Source: Spizellomyces punctatus DAOM BR117 (taxonomy: Eukaryota). Taken from it: a stretch of 64,000 bases of DNA. The notes beneath the pieces were generated by a model that saw only the letters and a program-made list of their open reading frames with translations, searched no databases and was not told the DNA's origin. Position 1 is the first letter of the stretch; every line of letters starts with the position of its first letter. Positions 7,700-61,200 of this stretch are shown in pieces. The position numbers were made by a program, and so were the translations under genes. The stretch lies in assembly GCA_000182565.2 (NCBI GenBank), contig KQ257457.1. One strand, 5' to 3'.

Positions 7700-8242
7700 C
7701 ATACAGTATGTAGACTGACCACTGTCAGCTCACGTGATCCGTAGGCGGAACTGGTTTCTGTCTTCAACAACCTCACGTGTGATCACGGGGGTAAGTGGTT
7801 AATGTCCACATACTGTACATAACCATCAAGGTTAACAGGCTCGAGGCCCGATTATTCCCATTCAACAGGCTCGGTGCCGACTATTCGTTGAACGTCCAAG
7901 AACCTTTCTGATGTCGTCTTGGGTTCCTGAAATCTCATACTCACATCGCATTCTGTAACCATATAATTATGTATCACGAAGTTCGCTCAATGAGAACATG
8001 AAATCAACTCACTCGGCTGCATATATGAGCGAAATGATGAAGTTCATTCTTTTAGGGTCGTGGCATCGGCTTTCATCGAATCTTGACTGCGCAGAAGCAC
8101 TCGCTGATTGTCAAGCAGATCGGAGATTTCCACGCTTTCTCGTGGCCGCCATATCGTCTTCTATAGATTCTTTATTGCGAAGAATCCGTCGCCCCGACGA
8201 TTTCTTGGACCGTCTATCCCGAAAGCTTGATTTTTCACACTG

Positions 8243-8650
8243 CGGGAGGTAGGTTATTGAGGCGCGAGGGGAGGGAGGTGGGTTGTTGCGGGAGGTAGGT
8301 TATTGACGTGCGCGCGAGAGAGGGAGGAATGTTATTGAGGCAAGTAGGTGATTGAGACGCACGCGCGAGGGAGGGAGGAATGCATGTTATTGAGGGAAGT
8401 AGGTTATTGAGCCGCGCGCGCGAGGGAGGGAGGAATGTAGGTTATTGAGGGAAGTAGGTTATTGACGCGCGCGCGAGGGAGGAGGGATGTAGGTTATCGC
8501 GAAGTAGGTTATTGAGGCGAGGAATGTAGCTTATCGCGGAAGTAGGTTATTGAGGCGAGGGATGTAGGTTATTGAGGGAGGTAGGTTATTGGCCTCAATC
8601 GCGCCAGGGAAGTATGTTATTGCGGGAGGGGAGGTAGGTCATTGTGTTGA
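8243..8650 (+). repeat. Degenerate G-rich minisatellite of ~16 GTAGGTTATT(GA) motifs separated by CGCGCG/GGGAGGGAGG spacers
   Basis: Motif read directly at ~8249, 8294, 8345, 8399, 8437, 8454, 8489, 8504, 8526, 8542, 8563, 8581, 8612, 8634 plus truncated copies. Confidence 0.9.
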
Positions 8651-9314
8651 ATTGCTGTGGATGATGGAGGGGGGGAGGGGAGGGGGACTCGGGAATGCCT
8701 CTCTTTTATGTGAAAATCCGCCCGTGCAAGAGACTGCGCAAAAGATCTAGGCTAAAATGCCCCCACATGGACTGGGCGTTATCTTCCCTTCTTCTCCTTT
8801 CCCCCTTAATGACATCCATCTCTATATCGATGTAACCACACCACAAGCGGTTCGAATGGAATACCCCATACAAAAGGGGAACATTTGTATGATTCCAATG
8901 GAAACCATGGGTTTATTTCTCGTCTTGTTCTGTCCCTGAAAGTAGCCACCAGGGCCACCATGGTCTACACCAGGATGACAGCGTTTTGTGTTATCTGATT
9001 ACGCGAGTCTCTATCATCGTATTATGTAAAAGGTGAGGGTCTCTTGTTGCGGATATTCGCATCACTGGTTCGACTTCAATCGATATATAGGCAGAGGTAC
9101 ATACATAGTGTGTGGGAAAATAGAAATGTCAGTGCCACGGAGCATTGCAGCCAGTGAATTAACCACACTTATTGTGAACCTCACGAAGATAAACAAAAAA
9201 ACGGGTCCAATATGTGCAGCCATGAACGGTGCAATTACTACATCTATGAGAAGAATATTCTGCAGTTTGCCACCTGCATGATGCTCTATGACTCAATCTA
9301 TCCACTCTTTTTTC

Positions 9315-9322
9315 TATATAAA
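9315..9322 (+). promoter_or_regulatory. TATA box of ghost element A cassette
   Basis: TATATAAA starting 100 nt upstream of ATG 9415; same spacing in copy B. Confidence 0.6.
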
Positions 9323-9414
9323 CCCCCCCTTGTCTGCCCCCCATCTTGTTTCTTTATCCCTCGACTCTCAAAGCATCTGCCCAACGCTCACGCAGCACTC
9401 TCAAGTCCATCATC

Positions 9415-9692
9415 ATGAGAATGCCGCTCTGGTGTCGAGGTCCTCGCCCTCCCGACAAAAACAACATAACCCCTTGCAAACACTATTACTGCTATGCTGT
9501 AATGATCGCAGGTATGCATTATCTTTGTATTTTCCCACGCCCGTATTCCGAGTCTAATTCTGATATACCTTAGTATCTGAACATCCTCCGACTAAAGAAT
9601 TTCGGAAGGGCTTAGTAGGATTTCTCTCGTGTGGTGGGCTTAGTTACCCAGTTAGAACAACCGTAATGTATTGCATGTGTAATTGGGTCTAG
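9415..9692 (+). CDS. Putative spliced 71-aa micro-ORF inside ghost element A (exons 9415-9511, 9574-9692)
   Basis: GTATGC..GTCTAAT..TTAG intron; spliced peptide MRMPLWCRGPRPPDKNNITPC...KGLVGFLSCGGLSYPVRTTVMYCMCNWV*; homologous ORF in copy B. Confidence 0.45.
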
Positions 9693-9728
9693 TGGTAGTT
9701 GGTTGGTTGTAAGGAGAGAATTACTTGG

Positions 9729-9817
9729 CTTTTCCGAACCAGTTATCGCTGGTTTATTCCCTGGTGTATTGTGTTGTGACATTTGTTATTGCCAATACAC
9801 TAAATCACATGAATAGC
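9729..9817 (+). ncRNA. Fanzor omegaRNA-like RNA: 74-nt scaffold (9729-9802) + ~15-nt guide AATCACATGAATAGC
   Basis: TTTTCCG-AACCAG/CTGGTT stem-TATTCCCTG-GTGTATTG/CAATACAC stem-TA, matching the architecture and (from memory) sequence blocks of the Spizellomyces punctatus Fz1 omegaRNA. Confidence 0.8.
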
Positions 9818-10155
9818 ATCATGCATCACAAATCTGGCAATCCGTTTCCAACCATGGACACCATGGCAACGACGTGACTCATCGTAGACTGGGAGCGATT
9901 TCCAATTCTGCAAATGCACTCCACAAGCAAACATGTTGATCAAGGCATTCTCCGTGCGCTCGCTGCAAAAAAATTTGGGAGTGGGGAATGGCGCTAACGT
10001 GCAGGTCCCGTTGCTCAAGAAGGTTACCGTGGTATTCGGTACAGATAAATGTCCAGCAAAGTCGTCACTAAGGTATCGTGCACCGCGACAGTGTTGTCCT
10101 CTACACTGGCTTGGTTAGCCGGTATTAATAGTCTCTTCTCCTAGCTCCTTTTACG

Positions 10156-11959
10156 TCAATGAGCTCCCCCGTATCTATAAAAGTAATCCTCACATCCAAT
10201 TCTCGACCCTTCCAGAGGAAGCCGACCACTGCGAGTTATCCCTTTCACTTGGTAGTTTATGCAGACTTTCGGTTTCGCAGCGGTCAAATGGTTATTCTGA
10301 CTGGTTTCCCATTCAGGAAATGACCACACTGTCTCAATTGACCTCCGAGAGTGTTTGACATCTGCATCCATGTATAACCGAATAATGACAGTGGCGCTTC
10401 CACCAGCGACATCACCGCAATGACCGATGCAACTCGCTTGCTTTTCGGCACCAACAAGATCGTAGAGAGGACTTGACAAATAATAGAGATGCTATAATGT
10501 CAAACGGAGTATGCTCAGCAGACCGTATCTGTAGGCATGACTGTCCTGCACTGACACGTCCGGTCTTAGACTTTTCAGCAGGCACACCAATTATTGGCAG
10601 CTATGGCATTCGCATAAATAATTCAATATATAAAGTGGATACATGCGTGCAACGGTTTCTAATGCCTAATTATCCCTCATGAGGGGCCCACAAGGAGCCA
10701 AGCGGATGAATGAACTTCAGCTCTCCCCGTTCAAACTCCCAATCGTTCCCTGTCAGCCATGACAATGCTCCTAACCTGAATTCAGCAATGTCATTTACGT
10801 CACGCAATTGATCGCTTTTCAAGCTACGATATGCTGTCCCATCCACCCCGAAATCATCTGCTACACTTTCGTCAATGAGTCCATCAGCTGTCGCCCGAGC
10901 ACTAGCTGCACCGACAGCATCGTCGATGTTTTGTAGGATCTGTCGAAGCCCGTGAGGGATTTTCCTATATTTCCAATTCATCAGTACGACCAATCCGCAA
11001 AGGATGTTGTTGCTCGGACAATCGCTGGTACCTTTTTGCCTCCTTAATTTCTTCAGTATCACCGTTCAAGCTCTCTTTCAAGTCCAAAACAATCTGGGCC
11101 CGAGCTCGCCAGTACCAGGCCTCCGCACGATTGATTGCCTCCCTTAGTTCATTCTCGCTAACAATATGACCAGGCTTTTGGCCCTCGCCCGCGCTGAAAT
11201 ACTGAATAGTAGAGTGACATATTAGCCTTCACAGAGACCAGACGGTGACAGATCAATCGACGTCATACCTCAATGAAGTCCTTCACAGTTGCCGGAAAAG
11301 CTGGGACAATGGCTGTCGCCTGAAAGAGTAATTCGTGCGGAAAGGTAACATGATAGCGTGGGATCCCATCTACTATGCGGAGTGTCCACAAAAGAATTCC
11401 TGGGTAGGAACTTTGAGTAAATGTGTGTTTCAAAGGTAGCAGTACGGTATTAACCTACCGAAAGATTCCCACCGAGCCCAATAGCTTGAAATATCTTGGA
11501 CTGCATCCCAGGACCCGAATTGCTTGTCCATCAACTTTTGCTCCTGATCGGCAACCGCGTGAGCTGAGCCAAAGCATCAACATTTCCCTTGCCGTTTCGT
11601 AACCCCACTCACTGTTTCTGTGAAAGACCTTGCAATTTTACTCTCGTCCACGGCTTTAGTCAGAGCGTCAAAGCTCTGTCGGATCCTTCCAGCTGAACTC
11701 ACAGCAATGAGCCTTCCTTGCAGACTTTTGCTAAATATAAGATTAAAAACTCACTCTCGTCCTTAGCATTTGCTGCAAGATAAGCTGCTTCTATTCCCCA
11801 TCGGGTCAATACTAGCTGCAAGGCACCAGCCCTCCGCGCGATCTCACTGGGACTTCTTTTCAAAAGGGGTGGAGGGTTTGTCACAGTCGCATACTTCCTG
11901 GCGAATGTTTCGCAATGCCGCAGATTGCTTCGCCCTGCAATTAATTTTCGTAACGACAT
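10156..11959 (-). CDS. Hypothetical multi-exon protein, possible mitochondrial presequence; 3' boundary uncertain
   Basis: Collinear minus-strand ORF segments (11699-11959, 10670-11062, 10156-10479); N-terminus MSLRKLIAGRSNLRHCETFARKYAT is Arg-rich and amphipathic-looking; divergent from SAPS gene. Confidence 0.45.
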
Positions 11960-24381: not shown

Positions 24382-24679
24382 GTAATGGGTTGGACGGGAG
24401 CAAAGGAAGGAACGCACACAATTGTGATGATGATTCCTGTTGGCATGGCAATTGGCGCCAGCGCGTCCTCCGCGACCTTTTAGCGGGTCAGCTAAACAGA
24501 TCCCATCGCACGCAGAAACAAAGCGGCCAAAGGAGCAGAAAGGAGGCGGCCATAACTCAATTGTGTGCTCGAGAACATGGGAAAATACGTCCGGGCACGA
24601 TCAGTATGCAAGTCATGCCGACCACAGAATTGCTCACAAAGGTGTAGGTGTTATGCGATTAAGACGTCCAGCGTACTTA

Positions 24680-24904
24680 GTGTAGAGGTGACAGAAACTG
24701 GCACTAACTACTACACCAGGGGATAGTCTGGCTACTACCATACTTTTACGTTTTCATTACCAGCCCAAAGCGGGTATCGAGACGTACTCACGGCATGGTT
24801 GAGCTCAGATCGGTCAGTCCGTCTCTTTGCGCAGGCTGAGAGGCGGCTGATAATATCAAAATTATTCTAATTATGTGAAATATGGCTAATATGATGATGT
24901 ACAC
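24680..24904 (-). mobile_element. Partial/derived Fanzor ghost element, copy C (right end clear, left end tentative)
   Basis: 24678-24721 differs at only 2 positions from 47160-47203 (right TIR/omegaRNA 3' stem of copy B); possible left end GTGTAC.. at 24904 with TA at 24905-24906 (TTTA rather than CATA). Confidence 0.6.
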
Positions 24905-55043: not shown

Positions 55044-55255
55044 GCGTTTGTGTTGTTTTTACCTGATTACGTGTACAGGGAATATGCACTTTTGTTTGGA
55101 TGCCTATGGAGAACGCGCGTGATGTTATATAGTGTATTACGGAAAACCATTCCGCATTCTGCAATAGATCACACTGCCCATGACAAACAAGAATTCATGA
55201 CCTGCAACCATCTAAAGCAGCTCAGCTGTTGTCACCGTTCTTGTAGATTGTTGTG

Positions 55256-58200
55256 ATGCTTCCTACTATCACGCGCGATGCCATTTCCCTGCCGCATCCC
55301 ATCCTTCATCCCTCACCATTTGGCAACAACAGTGGATGCGCTGGCATGTCGACCACACAGAGCTTCACAGGACATGTGGATCCTGATAGAATACCAATTT
55401 TCATAAACAGCCTACCAGATCGAGAACGGCGCATTCACAAAGCTCGACGAGCACCTGCCCCGTCAACGGCTCCTCCGGGCGGTCCAAGTAGCTTTCCCAC
55501 TAGCGATGGCAATACGAGATCTAATTTGGGGAAGGTAGGAGGGTTAGTGACGTCTGGCATGGGTTCCCGGAAGGTCTCCTTTCACGCAGGGGTGGGAGGA
55601 TCTGCAAAGGCTGGGGAACAGCGAAAGCGGGCGAGGAAGGTAATATGCAGCGTATGTCAACCTATCATTGATCTTCAAATTCATTCCTTGTTTGGCGATG
55701 TTATTCAGGTTGTTCAATCAACACTGTCAGTTGCGGATTACCATGTTTTACCCATGACTTCTTTGCAAAGCTCCTTGCAACCAGCGACAACTCCACTCTC
55801 CCCACCCCGTCGTCACTTTCAGCGTAAGCAAGGGAGTACCATAAGGTCGGACACCTTGGAAGAGCTTCGACCCAGCTCCAATGTTGTCCTGAGTCCGCGG
55901 AAGAAGCCAAAGATTGGAGACTCTGCCTCCACTGGTCCTCCCGGGGAGTATTCGCGGCCCAGACAAGTGGATCGTTATTCAGCAACTAGCGGCTTCAACG
56001 ATGGCAGCACGATCCGAGACGGAGCTGCCGTTCAACCAGCGATTAAGCAGAAACCTTACAATCCCGAAGAAGTCCGCGAGTACATGAAGCAAAAGCGGAA
56101 GCAGAGGAAGAAGAAAAAAGGATTAGATATAGAGGAGGTGCCGCAAGAGCATCATCATATGAGAATGAAGCCATACGACGCCGAGAAGGTGCGGGCGTAC
56201 ATGCAGCAAAAGTTACTACAGCGGGATCTAGAAGAAAAAGCCAAAAGGCACGCACACAAAGAAAAGGCCAAGAAGACCGCAGACATGCTCGACAAGCTTG
56301 ATCTGTATCGTCGACAACAAAGGGAGATTCTTAGAAGGAAGGTAGAGACCGACACGAAGCGTGGATTTACCTTCAAGGCAACAGTACATACAGAGTCTGG
56401 GGATGGGATGGCAGACAGCGGGTCAAAAGACTACCCAGATTCCCAAGACATTGCTGCAGATTTGAATGAGCGGCTAAACCATGATGTCGACCAGCGCAAG
56501 GACGCCGGAATCATTCATATGGAGACTGATGAGGCTGAGGTACAGAAGCGTGCCCTCAAGCGCGTTCGCTCAAATGCAAAAGACGTCACTGCAATAGCCC
56601 CCCTTCACCGTTCACTCTCAGCACCTATACATAAGGAAATTGAAACCGAACTCGCACAGCCTGATCAGCACAATACTCCACGACAGGCGTGGCTCCCTCA
56701 GCCTAACACATCACCAAGGACGACTAGTCATCCAACACCATCTCAGCGAACTCAACCCAATGGCACGTTTCAGAGACTTCAAGCGCTAATGGTCACAGCT
56801 GAAGCATTACATCAACGTATTATCCGAACCCTGCCCAACACTGACGATGATACTTCCGTAACTGAAAGTTGTGCAGACCAGTCGTCAATGGATTGGACAA
56901 AAGAAGACGTGGCTCCTAGTTCGAGGCAGACGGATCGAATTCGAAACAAGACCGACCAGCATGTCCAGACTTTGCCCAACACTGACGATGATATTCCCGT
57001 AACTGAAAGCTATGCAGGCCAGCTGTCAATGGATTTGACAAAAGAAGACGTGGCCCTTGGTCCAAGGCAGACCGAACCAATCCGAAACAAGACCCACCAG
57101 CATGTGCAGACCCTGCCCAACACTGACGATGATATTTCCGTAACTGAAAGCTGTGCAGACCAGCCGCTAAGGGATTTGACAAAAGGACACGTGGCTCCTA
57201 GTCTAAGGCAGACCGAATCAATCCGAAACAAGACCCACCAGCACGTTGAGCCGCTTCCGCCATTAGGTGATCTGGAGTCTCCACCAATAGGGGACAAGTA
57301 TAGCGTGATAAATATCTTTACAAGGAAATTTACCATTGCTACCCTCGTTGCCCCTCATGATGCTAACGAGATGGAGGCGACCTGCGATGACGAGGTCATT
57401 GGGGGAGACATCATTGATGGTAGTGCTAGCGGTGACCAGCCATCAGAAGATTTGGACCCTGATAGTCATGATTCGGAACAGAAGGACTCTCAGTCTCACG
57501 ACCCTGATCGTCATGGTTCGGAACAGAGGAACATTCAGTCTCACGAGCCCGATAGTCATGATTCGGAACAGAAGGACACTCAGTCTCACATTGAAAGCGC
57601 TTATGAGTTGTCCAAACGTGATAACAATCCAGAGATCATTCCAGCTGATGGCCGTAAGGAGTCCTCGGAAAGATTTGAATCCCTTCGAGACACAAGCGTC
57701 AGCGGACCATCCACCAGTAATCGCATGAACGAAGATATGTCACCTTCGCAATTTAGCGATACCACAGATTCATCCGCTGTCTCAAGCGAATACTCAACCT
57801 CCAGATCGCAAATGAGCTACAGTTCATTTAACTCTCGCCGACACAGCCAGCCGCCTCGAACCGGCCGCCGGAACTATCATCGTGCTCCTCGGCGGCACGG
57901 AAGCACACGAGATGAGCTATTGTGTCCCTCTAGGCGATTATCACCACACTCGTTGTCCAGAAAATTGATGGCGGAGATCAACTTGCTAGAAGCTATTGAA
58001 GAGTCTCGGATTCAGCTCGCCGAACTTGAGACAACTGGTCGAACTGCTTTTGCGCAGAGTGAAGCTGTAACTTTGACACAAATCTTGGCCGAACGACAAA
58101 GGAAACATGACCGTGATTTGGAGGAGGCCAAGTACGAGAGGGAGCTGAAGGAGGCACAAATGGATTTAGGTGCACATGGCGTAGCAGAGACAGGGAGTCA

Positions 58201-61200
58201 AGCGGAGAACCAAAGAAATGATATGTATGACGAGGACTTTGAGGAGTTGTCTGACTTATTGTCTGTTGGAAGCGGCACCGCGGAGCCTTCTGGGAAGGCA
58301 AAGGACTTGGAAGACTTGTCTGACTTTTTATCTGTTGGAGGCGGCACCGCGGAGCCTTCTGGGAAGGCAAAGGACTTGGAAGACTTGTCTGACTTTTTAT
58401 CTGTTGGAGGCGGCACCGCGAAACCTTCTGGGAAGGGAAAGGACTTGGAGGACTTGGAGGACTTGTCTGACTTTTTATCTGTTGGAGGCGGCACCGCGAA
58501 ACCTTCTGGGAAGGCAAAGGACTTGGAGGACTTGGAGGACTTTTTATCTGTTGGAGGCGGCACCGCGAAACCTTCTGGGAAGGGAAAAGAATTGGAGGAC
58601 TTGTCTGACTTTTTATATGTTGGAGGCGGCACCGCGAAACCTTCTGGGAAGGGAAAAGAATTGGAGGACTTGTCTGACTTTTTATCTGTTGGAGGCGGCA
58701 CCGCGAAACCTTCTGGGAAGGCAAAGGACTTGGAGGACTTGTCTGACTTTTTATCTGTTGGAGGTGGCACCGTGGAAGCTTCTGGGGACGATATTCCTGA
58801 AGATTTGCCACCGGAACCTGACTCTCCCGTCTCTACCGTTTCTGACCATGTGGTCCCGGCCGATTTGCCTCGCTATCTCTCTATTGCCGAATTGCAAACT
58901 CGGGAACAAGCAGCTGCTGCTGCAGATGCATCTGGAGTTAGTTTGGAAGAACACGCGTATGACAGTGACTCCTTTGTCCCTATTGTGGAGTCCAACGCTG
59001 TACACAAGGCGCCTGAGGACGGTCCAGATATCGTGGAAGAAGTCCAATCTCAGTACGATAACGACTCGTTCGCTTCATCTGTGGAGCACAGTGATTTACA
59101 TAAGAGAGAACTGGTCGCTGAGGACAATCCATGCGGTGAGCTGGCTCGTCGCATAGAGCTTCTTCGGCGACAGATTGCTGAACGGAAACGAAAAGCCAAA
59201 CTTTTATATCAAGAGAAGCTTCAAAAGCAGCAAACTGTGAGACAGCGGATGAGGGAGACGGAAATGAAGTTGAAGCAACAGTTAGAGGTACGGGGTTTCG
59301 GACGACTATACGTGCGCTTTTCAATGAAATCCAATTCATCTTCCTTTGCAGGCGATCAATTCCATCATTTATCGAACTGAAGCGGAGATTGTGACGATTG
59401 GCATGGGGGTGGAACTGGATGTCGAGAGTTATACGTCTTTGTCAGCTGCTTCTATTGCCCGACAGTCTGTACCTCTCGAGCAACGAGAACAAGCGGCGGC
59501 TGCTGCAGATGCATCTGGAGTTAGTTTGGAAGAACAAGCGTATGATAGTGACTCCTTTGTCCCTATTGTGGAGTCCAACGATGTACATAAGGACGGTGCA
59601 GATATCGTGGAAGAAGTCCAATCTCAGTACGATAACGACTCGTTTGCTTCATCTGTGGAGCACAGTGATTTACATAAGAAAGAACTGGTCGCTGTGGAGT
59701 CCAACGATGTACACAAGGCGCCTGAGGACAGTTCAGATATCGTGGAGGAAGTCCAATCTCAGTACGATAACGACTCGTTTGCTTCATCTGTGGAGCCCAG
59801 TGATTCACATAAGGGAGAACTGGTCGCTGAGGACAATCCGGCTGCCATGGATGACATCCAAAATGAATACGATAGCGACTCATTTGTCCCTATTGTGGAG
59901 TCCAACGATGTACATAAGGACGGTGCAGATATCGTGGAAGAAGTCCAATCTGAGTACGATAACGACTCGTTTGCTTCATCTGTGGAGCACAGTGATTCAC
60001 ATAAGGGAGAACTGGTCGCTGAGGACAATCCGGCTGCCATGGATGACATCCAAAATGAATACGATAGCGACTCATTTGTCCCTGTTGTCGAGTCTACCGA
60101 TTTGCACAAGGCGCCTGAGGACGGTCCAGATATTGTGGAAGTCCAATCTCAGTACGATAACGGCTCCTTTGCTTCATCTGTAGAGCACAGTGATTTACAT
60201 AAGGGAGAACTGGTCGCTGAGGACAATCCGGCTGCTAAGGATGAAGTCCAAAATGAATACGATAGCGACTCATTTGTCCCTATTGTGGAGTCCAACGATG
60301 TACATAAGGACGGTGCAGATATCGTGGAAGAAGTCCAATCTGAGTACGATAACGGCTCGTTTGCTTCATCTGTGGAGCATAGTGATTTACATAAGAGAGA
60401 AATGGTCGCTGACGACGGTTCAGCTGCGGTGGAAGAAGTAGATGAGGACGACAAGAACCGGTTTGTTTCGTTTGTGGAGCCCAGCGATTTATGCAAGGGC
60501 GCTGAGGACCATCCGGCTGCCATGGAAGAAGTCCAAGATGAGTACGATAGCGAGTCATTTGTCCCTGTTGTCGAGTCTCCCGATGTGCGCGTGGGAGAAA
60601 TGTCCGTTGAGGACAATCCCACTGCGATAGAAGAAGTCCAAGATGAGTACGATAGCGACTCATTTGTCCCTGCTGTCGAGTCTACCGATTTGCGCGTGGG
60701 AGGAGAAATGTCTGCTGAGGACAATTCCAATCCCACTGCGATAGAAGAAGTCCAAGATGAACACGATAGCTCATTTGTCCCTGTTGTCGAGTCTACCGAT
60801 TTGCCCGTGGGAGAAATGTGCGCTGAGGACAATCCCGCTGCGATAGAACAAGTCCAAGATGCATACGATAGCGACTCATTTGAGCCTGTTGTCGAGTCTA
60901 CCGATTTGCGCGTGGGAGAAGTGTCCGCTGAGGACAATCCCACTGCGATAGAACAAGTCCAAGATGAAGACGATAGCGACTCCTTTGTCCCTGTGGTCGA
61001 CTCTGTAGATTTACACAAGGAAGAGCAAGACGCGATTCTAGAGCAGGTGGATCAAGATGTGAAGCTCGATGTAGATTTATCCGCTAAAGGATTGGAGACA
61101 TCCGTGGACCCTTCTGCAGAGGAGGATATCGTTGACCAGCTTTTGGCGGACTTGTTGGACGACGCCATCAAAGGTGCGTTGGTCATTTGTGTTGTTCTCG

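What the first reader, a model, noticed from the sequence alone, without database searches (positions are those of the whole stretch)
9104..9817. Nuclease-less Fanzor 'ghost' transposon A encoding an omegaRNA whose guide matches its own empty site
Seen: CATA|GTG...CAC|TA architecture, TA duplication, imperfect ~24-bp TIRs, a 74-nt two-stem scaffold overlapping the right TIR, then unique flank AATCACATGAATAGC. Removing the element and one TA recreates CATA+AATCACATG..., i.e. TAM directly followed by the guide target. Established (recalled): Spizellomyces punctatus Fanzor1 uses a CATA TAM and a ~75-nt right-end scaffold with a ~15-nt flank-derived guide, and has ORF-less ghost loci. Inference: this is a trans-acting guide donor that parasitises a Fanzor protein encoded elsewhere.
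Basis: partly seen in the sequence, partly recalled or inferred. Interest (0 to 1): 0.88.

Follow-up and report, generated by a model that had tools for sequence, protein, structure and literature searches.

The report
Known Fanzor ghost element, hybrid copy
This is a real nuclease-less "ghost" jumping element that carries a Fanzor guide RNA, a kind already published for this very fungus, although this copy is an unlisted hybrid that sits in the end sequences of a different Fanzor transposon family.

Summary
Window 9104-9817 reads CATA|GTG...CAC|TA. Its inverted ends match at 21 of 30 positions, which 0 of 200,000 random pairs reach. It has a 74-nt two-stem scaffold (9729-9802) and a flank that is unique in the window.

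The window is Spizellomyces punctatus DAOM BR117, where Saito et al. 2023 describe 134 "ghost Spu-1" loci, the CATA TAM and working ghost omegaRNAs. A second copy, B (47160-47811, minus strand), is one of their listed loci, and its scaffold equals their tested "Ghost2" at 74 of 74 positions.

What is new is minor:
- **Unlisted locus.** Element A is not in their coordinate lists, and its exact scaffold is not among the 126 scaffolds published in 2026. A sibling, gst23, is (71 of 75).
- **Hybrid build.** Both ends and 110 nt under the left end match the SPu-3 family of Bao and Jurka 2013, in reverse orientation. Positions 9309-9768 are the usual ghost cassette, 89-96% identical to B over 9550-9749.
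- **What changed in the RNA.** Only the tip of stem 2, which the published structure shows is not contacted, was replaced, plus one contacted loop base (G17 to A).
- **Cassette anatomy.** It has a TATA box, a short ORF and a 62-nt GT..AG intron that is spliced in cDNA-like contigs.

Whether A's own RNA is processed and used was not shown.

The parts
9104..9107 (+). CATA: the CA plus the first TA, equal to the published SpuFz1 TAM
   Evidence: Sequence. TAM and conserved CA from Saito 2023 passages.
9106..9135 (+). Left inverted repeat, counted from the TA
   Evidence: Matches the right IR at 21 of 30 and B's left IR at 19 of 30. By eye it matches the SPu-3 3' TIR at about 15-18 of 25.
9198..9307 (-). 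Stretch homologous to the SPu-3 5' subterminal region (about SPu-3 nt 42-174)
   Evidence: By-eye alignment of the print-out with the SPu-3 consensus. It gives 96 of 110 aligned columns, plus one 22-nt and one 1-nt gap.
9315..9322 (+). TATA box (TATATAAA), 93 nt upstream of the ATG. Similarity to copy B starts here.
9415..9511 (+). Short ORF, exon 1 (32 codons plus 1 nt), beginning MRMPLWCRGPRPPD
   Evidence: The same motif heads RefSeq genes SPPG_09412 and SPPG_08830 inside published ghosts.
9512..9573 (+). 62-nt GT..AG intron
   Evidence: Joint 9509>9572 (cut +2) in 2 contigs of run X1. The same two-exon structure is annotated in published ghost loci.
9574..9692 (+). Exon 2 up to the TAG stop (9690-9692). 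The reading frame differs between copies upstream of the shared tail, so conservation there looks nucleotide-level.
   Evidence: Compared by eye.
9729..9802 (+). 74-nt omegaRNA scaffold: lead, stem 1, linker, stem 2
   Evidence: Fold. Matches Ghost2 (identical to copy B) at 39 of 40, then 15 of 29, then 5 of 5. Matches gst23 at 71 of 75.
9764..9802 (+). Stem 2 hairpin with the right IR. It is the reverse complement of the SPu-3 5' terminal hairpin.
   Evidence: By eye, 34 of 37 columns against SPu-3 nt 1-36. On its own it folds at -15.0 kcal/mol, z = -4.6.
9803..9817 (+). Flank that would serve as the 15-nt guide
   Evidence: Guide length taken from Saito 2023.
47160..47811 (-). Copy B, a published ghost Spu-1 locus of 652 nt. 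CATA lies at 47813-47810 and the guide flank at 47159-47145.
   Evidence: The scaffold (47233-47160) equals published Ghost2 at 74 of 74.
24678..24743 (-). Remnant C, a solo right end: ghost-type IR and stem 2, with stem 1 not conserved
   Evidence: (D13). Its IR matches B's at 28 of 30. Its coordinates are not in the published list.

Best explanation
Element A is a 699-bp (9104-9802 with CA and both TA) non-autonomous Fanzor 'ghost' transposon of S. punctatus.

**How it most likely works.**
1. A TATA-box promoter inside the element drives a Pol II transcript.
2. That transcript carries a short ORF and a 62-nt intron, and reads out through the right inverted repeat into the flank.
3. Its 3' part forms the two-stem omegaRNA scaffold.
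4. A Fanzor1 protein encoded elsewhere in the genome binds this scaffold.
5. The RNA is trimmed to a 14-15-nt guide made of flank sequence.
6. The complex then recognises CATA followed by AATCACATGAATAGC, which is the unoccupied insertion site.
7. Cutting that site would favour repair from an occupied copy, and so retention of the element.

**The hybrid build.** The cassette from the TATA box to the base of stem 2 is the ordinary ghost cassette. It sits in reverse orientation inside a gutted SPu-3-family backbone, and the SPu-3 terminal hairpin supplies the tip of stem 2.

**Shown here or in print.**
- The anatomy and the fold.
- The genome identity.
- Splicing of family transcripts.
- Activity of the scaffold identical to copy B.

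**Inferred.**
- Processing and binding of A's own RNA.
- Cleavage in the fungus.
- Homing.
For: - **Anatomy and chance control:**
- **Genome identity.** Protein P0001 is identical to SPPG_05121, and B's published ends (727781-727810 and 728403-728432) fit a single offset.
- **Partner gene.** An Fz gene is listed on the same scaffold at 164464-166302.
- **Published class description:**
- **Scaffold match.** Published scaffolds are printed. B equals Ghost2 at 74 of 74. A matches it at 39 of 40 over the lead, stem 1, linker and start of stem 2, and at 5 of 5 at the end.
- **Stem 2 tip is dispensable.** The published structure says C40-G70 of stem 2 does not touch the protein and can be removed. 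That is the part A has replaced.
- **Compensatory pair.** Stem 1 shows a two-sided change between A and gst23 (A-U against G-C).
- **No nuclease gene.** The longest open frame overlapping A is 104 aa (9800-10114, minus, mostly flank); inside the element it is 91 aa. There is no real Pfam match.
- **Splicing.** A GT..AG joint at 9512-9573 appears in 2 contigs of run X1. X1 also carries GT..AG joints in the neighbouring gene, so it is cDNA-like.
- **Read-through.** The RefSeq mRNA of SPPG_08830 starts inside a ghost and runs about 300 nt past its right IR.
- **Copy-specific contigs.** X1 has a 97-nt contig over 9677-9773 and X9 a 152-nt contig over 9662-9813, both with 0 differences.
- **Hybrid origin.** By-eye alignments to SPu-3, together with the identity profile against B: under 0.5 for 9150-9349 and 0.89-0.96 for 9550-9749.
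Against: - **No RNA ends.** Nothing here shows an 88-90-nt RNA from A. All runs laid were contigs, which cannot show ends, strand or level, and X9 is only guessed to be RNA.
- **A contacted base differs.** A has A instead of G at loop position 17, one of the bases the published structure lists as contacted by the protein. The same change occurs in listed scaffolds gst6 and gst89, which were not among those tested.
- **Distant scaffolds edit poorly.** In the 2026 study gst7, gst8, gst16, gst73 and gst98 gave about 6-20% against 25-64% for close ones. The A-type scaffold gst23 was not tested.
- **Imperfect ends, unknown transposase.** A's ends match at only 21 of 30, and the transposase is unknown. 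Saito et al. found none.
- **The guide match is not independent evidence,** because it holds by construction.
- **The SPu-3 comparison was made by eye** on printed text, not by a program.
Confidence: 0.8

Rival explanations
1. Element A is a dead relic. It is a ghost copy that recombined with an SPu-3 fragment, no longer moves, and makes no RNA that any Fanzor uses.
For: - The ends match at only 21 of 30, against 26 of 30 in B.
- The G17A change lies at a contacted loop base.
- The locus is missing from the published lists.
- No RNA ends were seen.
Against: - The cassette is 89-96% identical to an intact listed ghost over 9550-9749.
- The junction with the SPu-3 hairpin keeps every proximal stem 2 position that the structure lists as contacted.
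- A sibling with the same hybrid stem 2 exists at another locus (gst23, 71 of 75).
- Contigs in two runs match A exactly across its copy-specific bases.
Confidence: 0.25
2. A's RNA serves the Fanzor protein of the SPu-3 family rather than SpuFz1, because its transposon ends are SPu-3-type.
For: - The ends and subterminal region are SPu-3-like.
- S. punctatus has three Fanzor1 families.
Against: - The lead, stem 1 and linker, which contact the protein, are of the ghost/SpuFz1 type.
- SPu-3's own 3' end lacks this stem 1 and linker layout. Two listed scaffolds of that type exist (gst8, gst24), and gst8 gave only about 6% editing with SpuFz1-v3.
- In A the RNA reads out through what is the 5' end of SPu-3, not the end where the SPu-3 gene would place its own RNA.
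Confidence: 0.12
3. The payload is the small protein. The element is mainly a carrier of a conserved short ORF, and the guide RNA is a by-product.
For: - All five copies seen begin M-R-x-x-(M/L)-W-(W)-C-R-G-P-R-P-P-D.
- In the three DNA copies seen, the four variable sites within the W-C-R-G-P-R-P-P-D codons are all synonymous third positions (by eye).
- RefSeq annotates two-exon genes there.
Against: - Beyond about residue 20 the copies diverge.
- Different copies read the conserved 3' half in different frames.
- There is no Pfam match above noise.
- No protein homologue was found.
- The part best conserved between A and B is the RNA end.
Confidence: 0.1
4. The inverted ends and the fold are chance, and there is no mobile element.
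For: None found.
Against: - 0 of 200,000 random pairs reach the end similarity.
- A second copy and a remnant lie in the same window.
- Contigs from other loci break off exactly at 9103 and 9802.
- The family is published.
Confidence: 0.01

Closest known systems
Ghost Spu-1 elements and ghost omegaRNAs of S. punctatus Fanzor1 (Saito et al. 2023, PMC10432273)
   Same: - Same genome.
- No Fz ORF.
- CA upstream of the 5' IR.
- The scaffold runs through the right IR, and the guide comes from the flank.
- The cassette is 89-96% identical to listed copy B over 9550-9749.
- B's scaffold equals the tested Ghost2.
   Different: - A's two IRs match the ghost IRs at only 19 of 30 each.
- The left 250 bp are unrelated to B.
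- The tip of stem 2 is different.
- The locus is not in the published coordinate lists.
gst23, one of 126 unique ghost scaffolds in PMC13434818 (Supplementary Data)
   Same: It has the same hybrid stem 2 and the same layout, and matches A at 71 of 75.
   Different: - It lies at another locus.
- Its stem 1 has G-C where A has A-U, and G at loop position 17.
- It was not among the scaffolds tested, and it is not described as a hybrid in the passages I read.
SPu-3, a Fanzor1 element of S. punctatus (Bao and Jurka 2013, PMC3627910): 2288 bp, 25-bp TIRs, TA duplication, 2 copies
   Same: A's right end matches the SPu-3 5' terminal hairpin at 34 of 37 columns. A 9198-9307 matches the SPu-3 subterminal region at 96 of 110. 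A's left IR resembles the SPu-3 3' TIR. All counts are by eye.
   Different: - A has no Fanzor ORF.
- A carries the ghost cassette, in reverse orientation, between the hairpin and the subterminal region.
Bacterial TnpB omegaRNA of IS200/IS605 elements (recalled, apart from the comparison made in Saito 2023)
   Same: - The guide RNA is read from the transposon's right end into the flank.
- A TAM sits beside the left end.
- The target is the empty site.
   Different: - This is a eukaryotic element with a Pol II-type promoter and a spliceosomal intron.
- It has TIRs with a putative TA duplication.
- No transposase is known.
- Nuclease and guide lie on separate elements.

Membership tests
Ghost Spu-1 element (Saito et al. 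2023) | Lies in a genome that encodes SpuFz1 elsewhere | tested here: met
   The window is NW_015971544 of S. punctatus DAOM BR117. An fz feature is listed on the same scaffold. The paper reports 19 full-length Fz genes.
Ghost Spu-1 element (Saito et al. 2023) | No Fz ORF between the inverted repeats | tested here: met
   The element is about 700 bp. Its longest internal open frame is 91 aa, and nothing in Pfam scores above noise.
Ghost Spu-1 element (Saito et al. 2023) | 30-nt IRs of the ghost type at both ends | tested here: not met
   A's IRs match B's at 19 of 30 each, and B's two IRs match each other at 26 of 30. By eye, A's ends are SPu-3-like. Copy B meets this feature.
Ghost Spu-1 element (Saito et al. 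2023) | Conserved CA upstream of the 5' IR, giving CATA with the TA | tested here: met
   A at 9104-9107 and B at 47813-47810.
Ghost Spu-1 element (Saito et al. 2023) | Conserved interior of about 550 nt | tested here: inconclusive
   Only 9309-9768 is shared with B. Positions 9150-9349 are under 0.5 identical.
Ghost Spu-1 element (Saito et al. 2023) | Two-stem scaffold of 74-75 nt over the right IR, similar to the Fz-locus scaffold | tested here: met
   A and B fold the same way. A matches Ghost2 at 39 of 40 in the proximal part. By eye, A matches the canonical scaffold at 31 of 39 over positions 1-39, with one two-sided stem change.
Ghost Spu-1 element (Saito et al. 2023) | 88-90-nt RNA with a 14-15-nt flank-derived 3' guide | not testable with these tools
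   Only contigs were available, and they cannot show RNA ends.
Ghost Spu-1 element (Saito et al. 2023) | The scaffold supports SpuFz1 cleavage | not testable with these tools
   This is published for Ghost1-4, and Ghost2 equals B's scaffold. It has not been done for A's scaffold or for gst23.
SPu-3 non-autonomous derivative (Bao and Jurka 2013) | SPu-3-type TIRs flanked by TA | tested here: met
   By eye, the right end matches at 34 of 37 columns and the left IR at about 15-18 of 25. TA lies on both sides. No program alignment was run.
SPu-3 non-autonomous derivative (Bao and Jurka 2013) | Internal sequence colinear with SPu-3 | tested here: met
   By eye, 9198-9307 (minus strand) matches SPu-3 nt 42-174 at 96 of 110 columns. 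The ghost cassette interrupts this colinearity after the hairpin.

The most novel reading that the evidence does not exclude
The ghost cassette may be a self-contained, gene-like module made of a TATA promoter, a short ORF, a spliceosomal intron, and an omegaRNA in the 3' part. Its first 14 or so residues (MxxxMWWCRGPRPPD) would be under purifying selection. The module would move between transposon backbones of different Fanzor families and take the tip of stem 2 from whichever terminal hairpin it lands next to. Guide-RNA modules and transposon ends would then be exchangeable parts, and ghost elements would not be simple deletion products of Fanzor elements.
Probability: 0.35. Interest if true: 0.55.

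Novelty: new member of a known kind. Interest (0 to 1): 0.27.

Why it matters
The class, its TAM, its scaffold and its use with SpuFz1 are published for this very genome, so the main finding adds nothing new. Three smaller points remain.

- **Incomplete published lists.** An unlisted locus and an unlisted solo end show that the published ghost lists, which were built on end similarity, are not complete.
- **A natural scaffold experiment.** The hybrid copy swaps the tip of stem 2 and the transposon ends for those of another family while every proximal contact position is kept. This agrees with the published trimming data.
- **How ghost guide RNAs are made.** The promoter, short ORF and spliced intron suggest they are cut from a Pol II transcript. 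I did not see this stated in the passages I read.

Tried and rejected
- **Whole-genome search.** No genome is held for this window, so A-type copies could not be counted.
- **Rfam.** 0 matches at E up to 1 over 8900-10000.
- **tRNA scan.** Two tRNA-Ser genes lie elsewhere and none in the element, so a tRNA-like internal promoter is not supported.
- **Bacterial promoter and terminator scan.** At chance level, and not relevant to a fungus.
- **Pfam on large ORFs.** I gave 25 of the 33 ORFs of 150 aa or more. The 8 left out overlap other frames or repeats: 30851, 48466, 57993, 58198, 58218, 59398, 60149 and 61132. No TnpB/Fanzor family matched, so there is no full-length Fz gene in the window.
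- **Homologues of the short ORF.** The first query was too short. The unspliced 52-aa frame of A found no candidate among proteins of 28-91 aa. Longer proteins were not searched, so this says little.
- **Longer RNA folds.** The 244 nt of A and 248 nt of B disagree with each other, and B is at chance (z = -0.24). There is no support for a conserved extended structure.
- **Published-supplement look-ups that failed.** Strings specific to A were not found, but the genome text there is printed in 10-letter blocks, so that search is blind. The product name 'ubiquitin' was not found either. The protein and coordinate route worked instead.
- **Earlier findings of this scan.** Nothing on this genome. 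The hits are in other genomes and point back to the same paper.
- **Read laying.** No contig covers 8783-9087 or 9820-9880, so nothing can be said about an empty allele or about the 3' end of the RNA.
- **Cluster look-up.** 2 of 10 ORFs were in the collection, and their names and accessions are withheld for window proteins.
- **Not attempted.** I did not type published consensus sequences into any program, so all comparisons with them are by eye. Saito's figure panels and PDF supplement could not be read and may show end logos that include the A type.
Full report
**1. The observation**

- CATA lies at 9104-9107 and GTG follows at 9108.
- CAC lies at 9798-9800 and TA at 9801-9802.
- AATCACATGAATAGC lies at 9803-9817.

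Counted from the TA, the two ends agree at 21 of 30 positions. None of 200,000 random pairs of 30-mers from the window reaches that.

The 74 nt at 9729-9802 fold into four parts: a 7-nt single-stranded lead, an 8-bp stem 1 with a 4-nt loop, a 6-nt linker, and a long stem 2 that ends on the last base. The energy is -25.7 kcal/mol, z = -5.9, and 0 of 200 shuffles fold as well. With 15 nt of flank added, the flank stays unpaired.

The flank has no other exact match in the window. With up to 3 mismatches there are 5 matches against 2.16 expected.

The statement that removing the element recreates TAM plus target is true by construction, because the guide is the flank. Only the CA in front of the TA is independent information.

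**2. Other copies in the window**

The repeat search found a second copy in inverted orientation, and a 66-nt fragment related to its right end.

Copy B runs from 47811 down to 47160 on the minus strand and is 652 nt long.
- CATA precedes it and TA ends it, followed by a different flank.
- Its ends agree at 26 of 30.
- It folds into the same layout as A.

Fragment C (24743 to 24678, minus strand) keeps the right IR (28 of 30 to B) and stem 2, but not stem 1.

**3. Where the window comes from, and what is published**

I read passages and the whole section 'Identification of omegaRNA from Fz loci' of Saito et al. 2023 (PMC10432273). For S. punctatus DAOM BR117 it states:
- 42 loci with full-length (19) or partial Fz genes.
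- 134 'ghost Spu-1' loci without the Fz ORF.
- A conserved region of about 550 nt between 30-nt IRs.
- A conserved CA upstream of the 5' IR.
- A 75-nt scaffold over the right IR, with a 14-15-nt variable 3' extension.
- The TAM CATA.
- 75-nt ghost scaffolds from four loci that edit human cells with SpuFz1 as well as the improved canonical RNA.

Its Discussion already proposes that ghost loci supply guides to Fz in trans.

Its supplement prints the canonical and Ghost1-4 scaffolds. B's scaffold equals Ghost2 at 74 of 74 positions (compared by eye).

The 487-aa ORF next to B (P0001) is printed letter for letter in the ghost-locus file as SPPG_05121. That record gives end features at NW_015971544:727781-727810 and 728403-728432. 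These fit window 47160-47189 and 47782-47811 with a single offset of 680,621.

The window is therefore that scaffold, and B is a listed ghost locus. The Fz-locus file lists an fz feature on the same scaffold at 164464-166302.

**4. Element A is not listed, and it is a hybrid**

*Not in the published lists.* With the same offset, A's ends should appear at about 689727-689756 and 690394-690423.
- The number prefixes 6897, 6903 and 6904 occur 0 times in the ghost and Fz locus files. The control prefix 7284 finds both numbers of B's left end.
- A 2026 paper (PMC13434818; passages, supplement search) extracted 126 unique scaffolds from the same annotation.
- A 14-nt string specific to A's stem 2 occurs 0 times there.
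- A 9-nt string of the A-type stem 2 occurs once, in gst23. gst23 matches A's 75 nt at 71 of 75, and two of the four differences form a compensatory pair in stem 1.

So A's locus is unlisted, and one sibling locus is listed.

*Uneven similarity to B*. Identity by position is:
- under 0.5 for 9150-9349;
- 0.64-0.77 for 9350-9549;
- 0.89-0.96 for 9550-9749;
- 0.72 for 9750-9799.

Within the scaffold, A matches B at 39 of 40 for the first 40 nt, 15 of 29 for the tip of stem 2, and 5 of 5 at the end. A's IRs match B's at only 19 of 30 each.

*Match to SPu-3.* Bao and Jurka 2013 (PMC3627910; passages, supplement) describe three Fanzor1 families in this fungus and print their consensus sequences. 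I compared these by eye with the reverse complement of A printed.
- A's right end matches SPu-3 nt 1-36 at 34 of 37 columns. That SPu-3 stretch is itself a terminal hairpin.
- A 9307-9198 matches SPu-3 nt 42-174 at 96 of 110 columns, with one 22-nt and one 1-nt gap.
- A's left IR resembles the SPu-3 3' TIR at about 15-18 of 25.

Read on the minus strand, A is therefore colinear with a gutted SPu-3. The ghost cassette (9309-9763) is inserted, in the opposite orientation, just after the SPu-3 5' hairpin. The joint lies in the GTGTA shared by both stem 2 versions.

These alignments were not run through a program, because I did not type published sequence into tools.

Uniform decay of an ordinary ghost does not explain these three facts together: a 96%-identical core, ends that are only 63% identical, and a 92% match of one end to another family.

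**5. What the swap does to the RNA**

The published structure lists the contacts as U5-C7, the stem-loop 1 bases U16-G20 and G22, the linker A29-C34, U35, G37, A72 and A75. It states that C40-G70 of stem 2 is not contacted and can be trimmed away.

A's replaced segment is positions 41-69. All the listed contact positions are kept except position 17, where A has A instead of G.

The same change is in listed scaffolds gst6 and gst89. I saw no test of them.

In the 2026 study, distant 'scaffolds' edited poorly. gst7, gst8, gst16, gst73 and gst98 gave about 6-20%, against 25-64% for close ones (source-data file). By eye, gst7 is the reverse complement of a ghost left end and gst8 is an SPu-3-type 3' end. 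I have not seen the sequences of gst16, gst73 and gst98. gst23 was not tested.

**6. The interior**

A and B share the following:
- A TATA box (A: 9315-9322).
- An ATG about 90 nt downstream (A: 9415).
- An intron with a GT..AG border and a CTAAT branch-point-like motif (A: 9512-9573).
- A stop at 9690-9692, 36 nt before the scaffold.

RefSeq annotates two-exon genes at this place in listed ghosts (SPPG_09412, SPPG_08830). The SPPG_08830 mRNA runs about 300 nt beyond the right IR.

Laying contigs of four runs on 8600-10400 gave these results:
- Run X1 has GT..AG joints in the neighbouring gene (10070>10143 and 10250>10316), so it behaves as cDNA.
- X1 also has a joint 9509>9572 (cut +2, that is 9512-9573) in 2 contigs.
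- A 97-nt X1 contig (9677-9773) and a 152-nt X9 contig (9662-9813) match A with 0 differences across bases that distinguish A from B.
- Other contigs break off at 9103 and at 9802, as expected for copies at other loci.

Contigs cannot show RNA ends, strand or level, and X9's RNA label is a guess.

*The short ORF.* Five copies begin alike: A, B, the first listed locus, and the two RefSeq genes. The shared start is M-R-x-x-(M/L)-W-(W)-C-R-G-P-R-P-P-D. In the three DNA copies I saw, the four variable sites in the W-C-R-G-P-R-P-P-D codons are all synonymous third positions. By my count about 26% of single changes there would be synonymous.

Further on, the copies diverge and read the conserved 3' half in different frames. 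That half is more likely conserved as nucleic acid. By eye it also resembles the 3' untranslated ends of SPu-1, SPu-2 and SPu-3.

**7. Mechanism and verdict**

The most likely reading is the published one.
1. The element makes a Pol II transcript that reads through its right end.
2. A Fanzor1 protein encoded elsewhere binds the scaffold.
3. The flank becomes a 14-15-nt guide.
4. The target is CATA plus that flank, which is the unoccupied site.

Established here or in print:
- The anatomy.
- The genome.
- Activity of the identical B scaffold.
- Splicing of family transcripts.

Still inference:
- Processing and use of A's own RNA.
- Cleavage in the fungus.
- Any homing.

One caveat on the empty-site logic rests on general knowledge of TA-duplicating cut-and-paste elements. 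Excision often leaves a footprint, which would separate the TAM from the target. The natural target would then be a never-occupied allele or sister copy rather than the excision site.

I searched the paper library for Fanzor with 'ghost' and 'SPu-3' (2 papers hold at least two of the terms, and none holds SPu-3 together with either). In the passages I read, I found no description of the hybrid or of the promoter and intron cassette. Figures, one PDF supplement and bioRxiv supplements could not be read.

The kind is already known. This locus is a new, slightly unusual member.

Noticed in passing
window 47160-47811 (-): This second ghost element is a listed locus of Saito et al. 2023, and its scaffold is identical to their tested Ghost2. 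The RefSeq mRNA of the neighbouring gene SPPG_05121 is drawn 330 nt into the ghost, antisense to the guide RNA. That may be an artefact of unstranded RNA-seq.
   Followed up: yes
window 24678-24743 (-): This is a solo ghost right end. The IR matches B's at 28 of 30 and stem 2 is kept, but stem 1 is not conserved. It is followed by TA and a different flank. Its coordinates are absent from the published ghost list.
   Followed up: partly
window 9415-9456 and 47551-47507 (-): The short ORF in ghost elements starts with a conserved MxxxMWWCRGPRPPD. All four variable sites seen in the core codons are synonymous. No family match and no homologue were found.
   Followed up: partly
PMC13434818 Supplementary Data, compared with window 47737-47811: About half of the published 'ghost scaffolds' (for example gst3, gst4, gst7) look by eye like the reverse complement of ghost left ends, not guide-RNA ends. 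This would explain the 'distinct second clade' and the low activity of gst7.
   Followed up: partly
window 8241-8646: A purine-rich tandem array with units of about 46-60 nt (GGGAGG...GTAGGTTATTGA...) lies about 460 bp upstream of element A.
   Followed up: no
window 45045-45126 and 62613-62695 (-): Two tRNA-Ser(TGA) genes sit within a 125-nt repeat that is 90% identical between them.
   Followed up: no
window 55253-61214 (+): Very long open frames (1375 and 622 aa) are built from nested tandem repeats with periods of 69, 141, 192-198 and 45 nt. They have no Pfam match.
   Followed up: no
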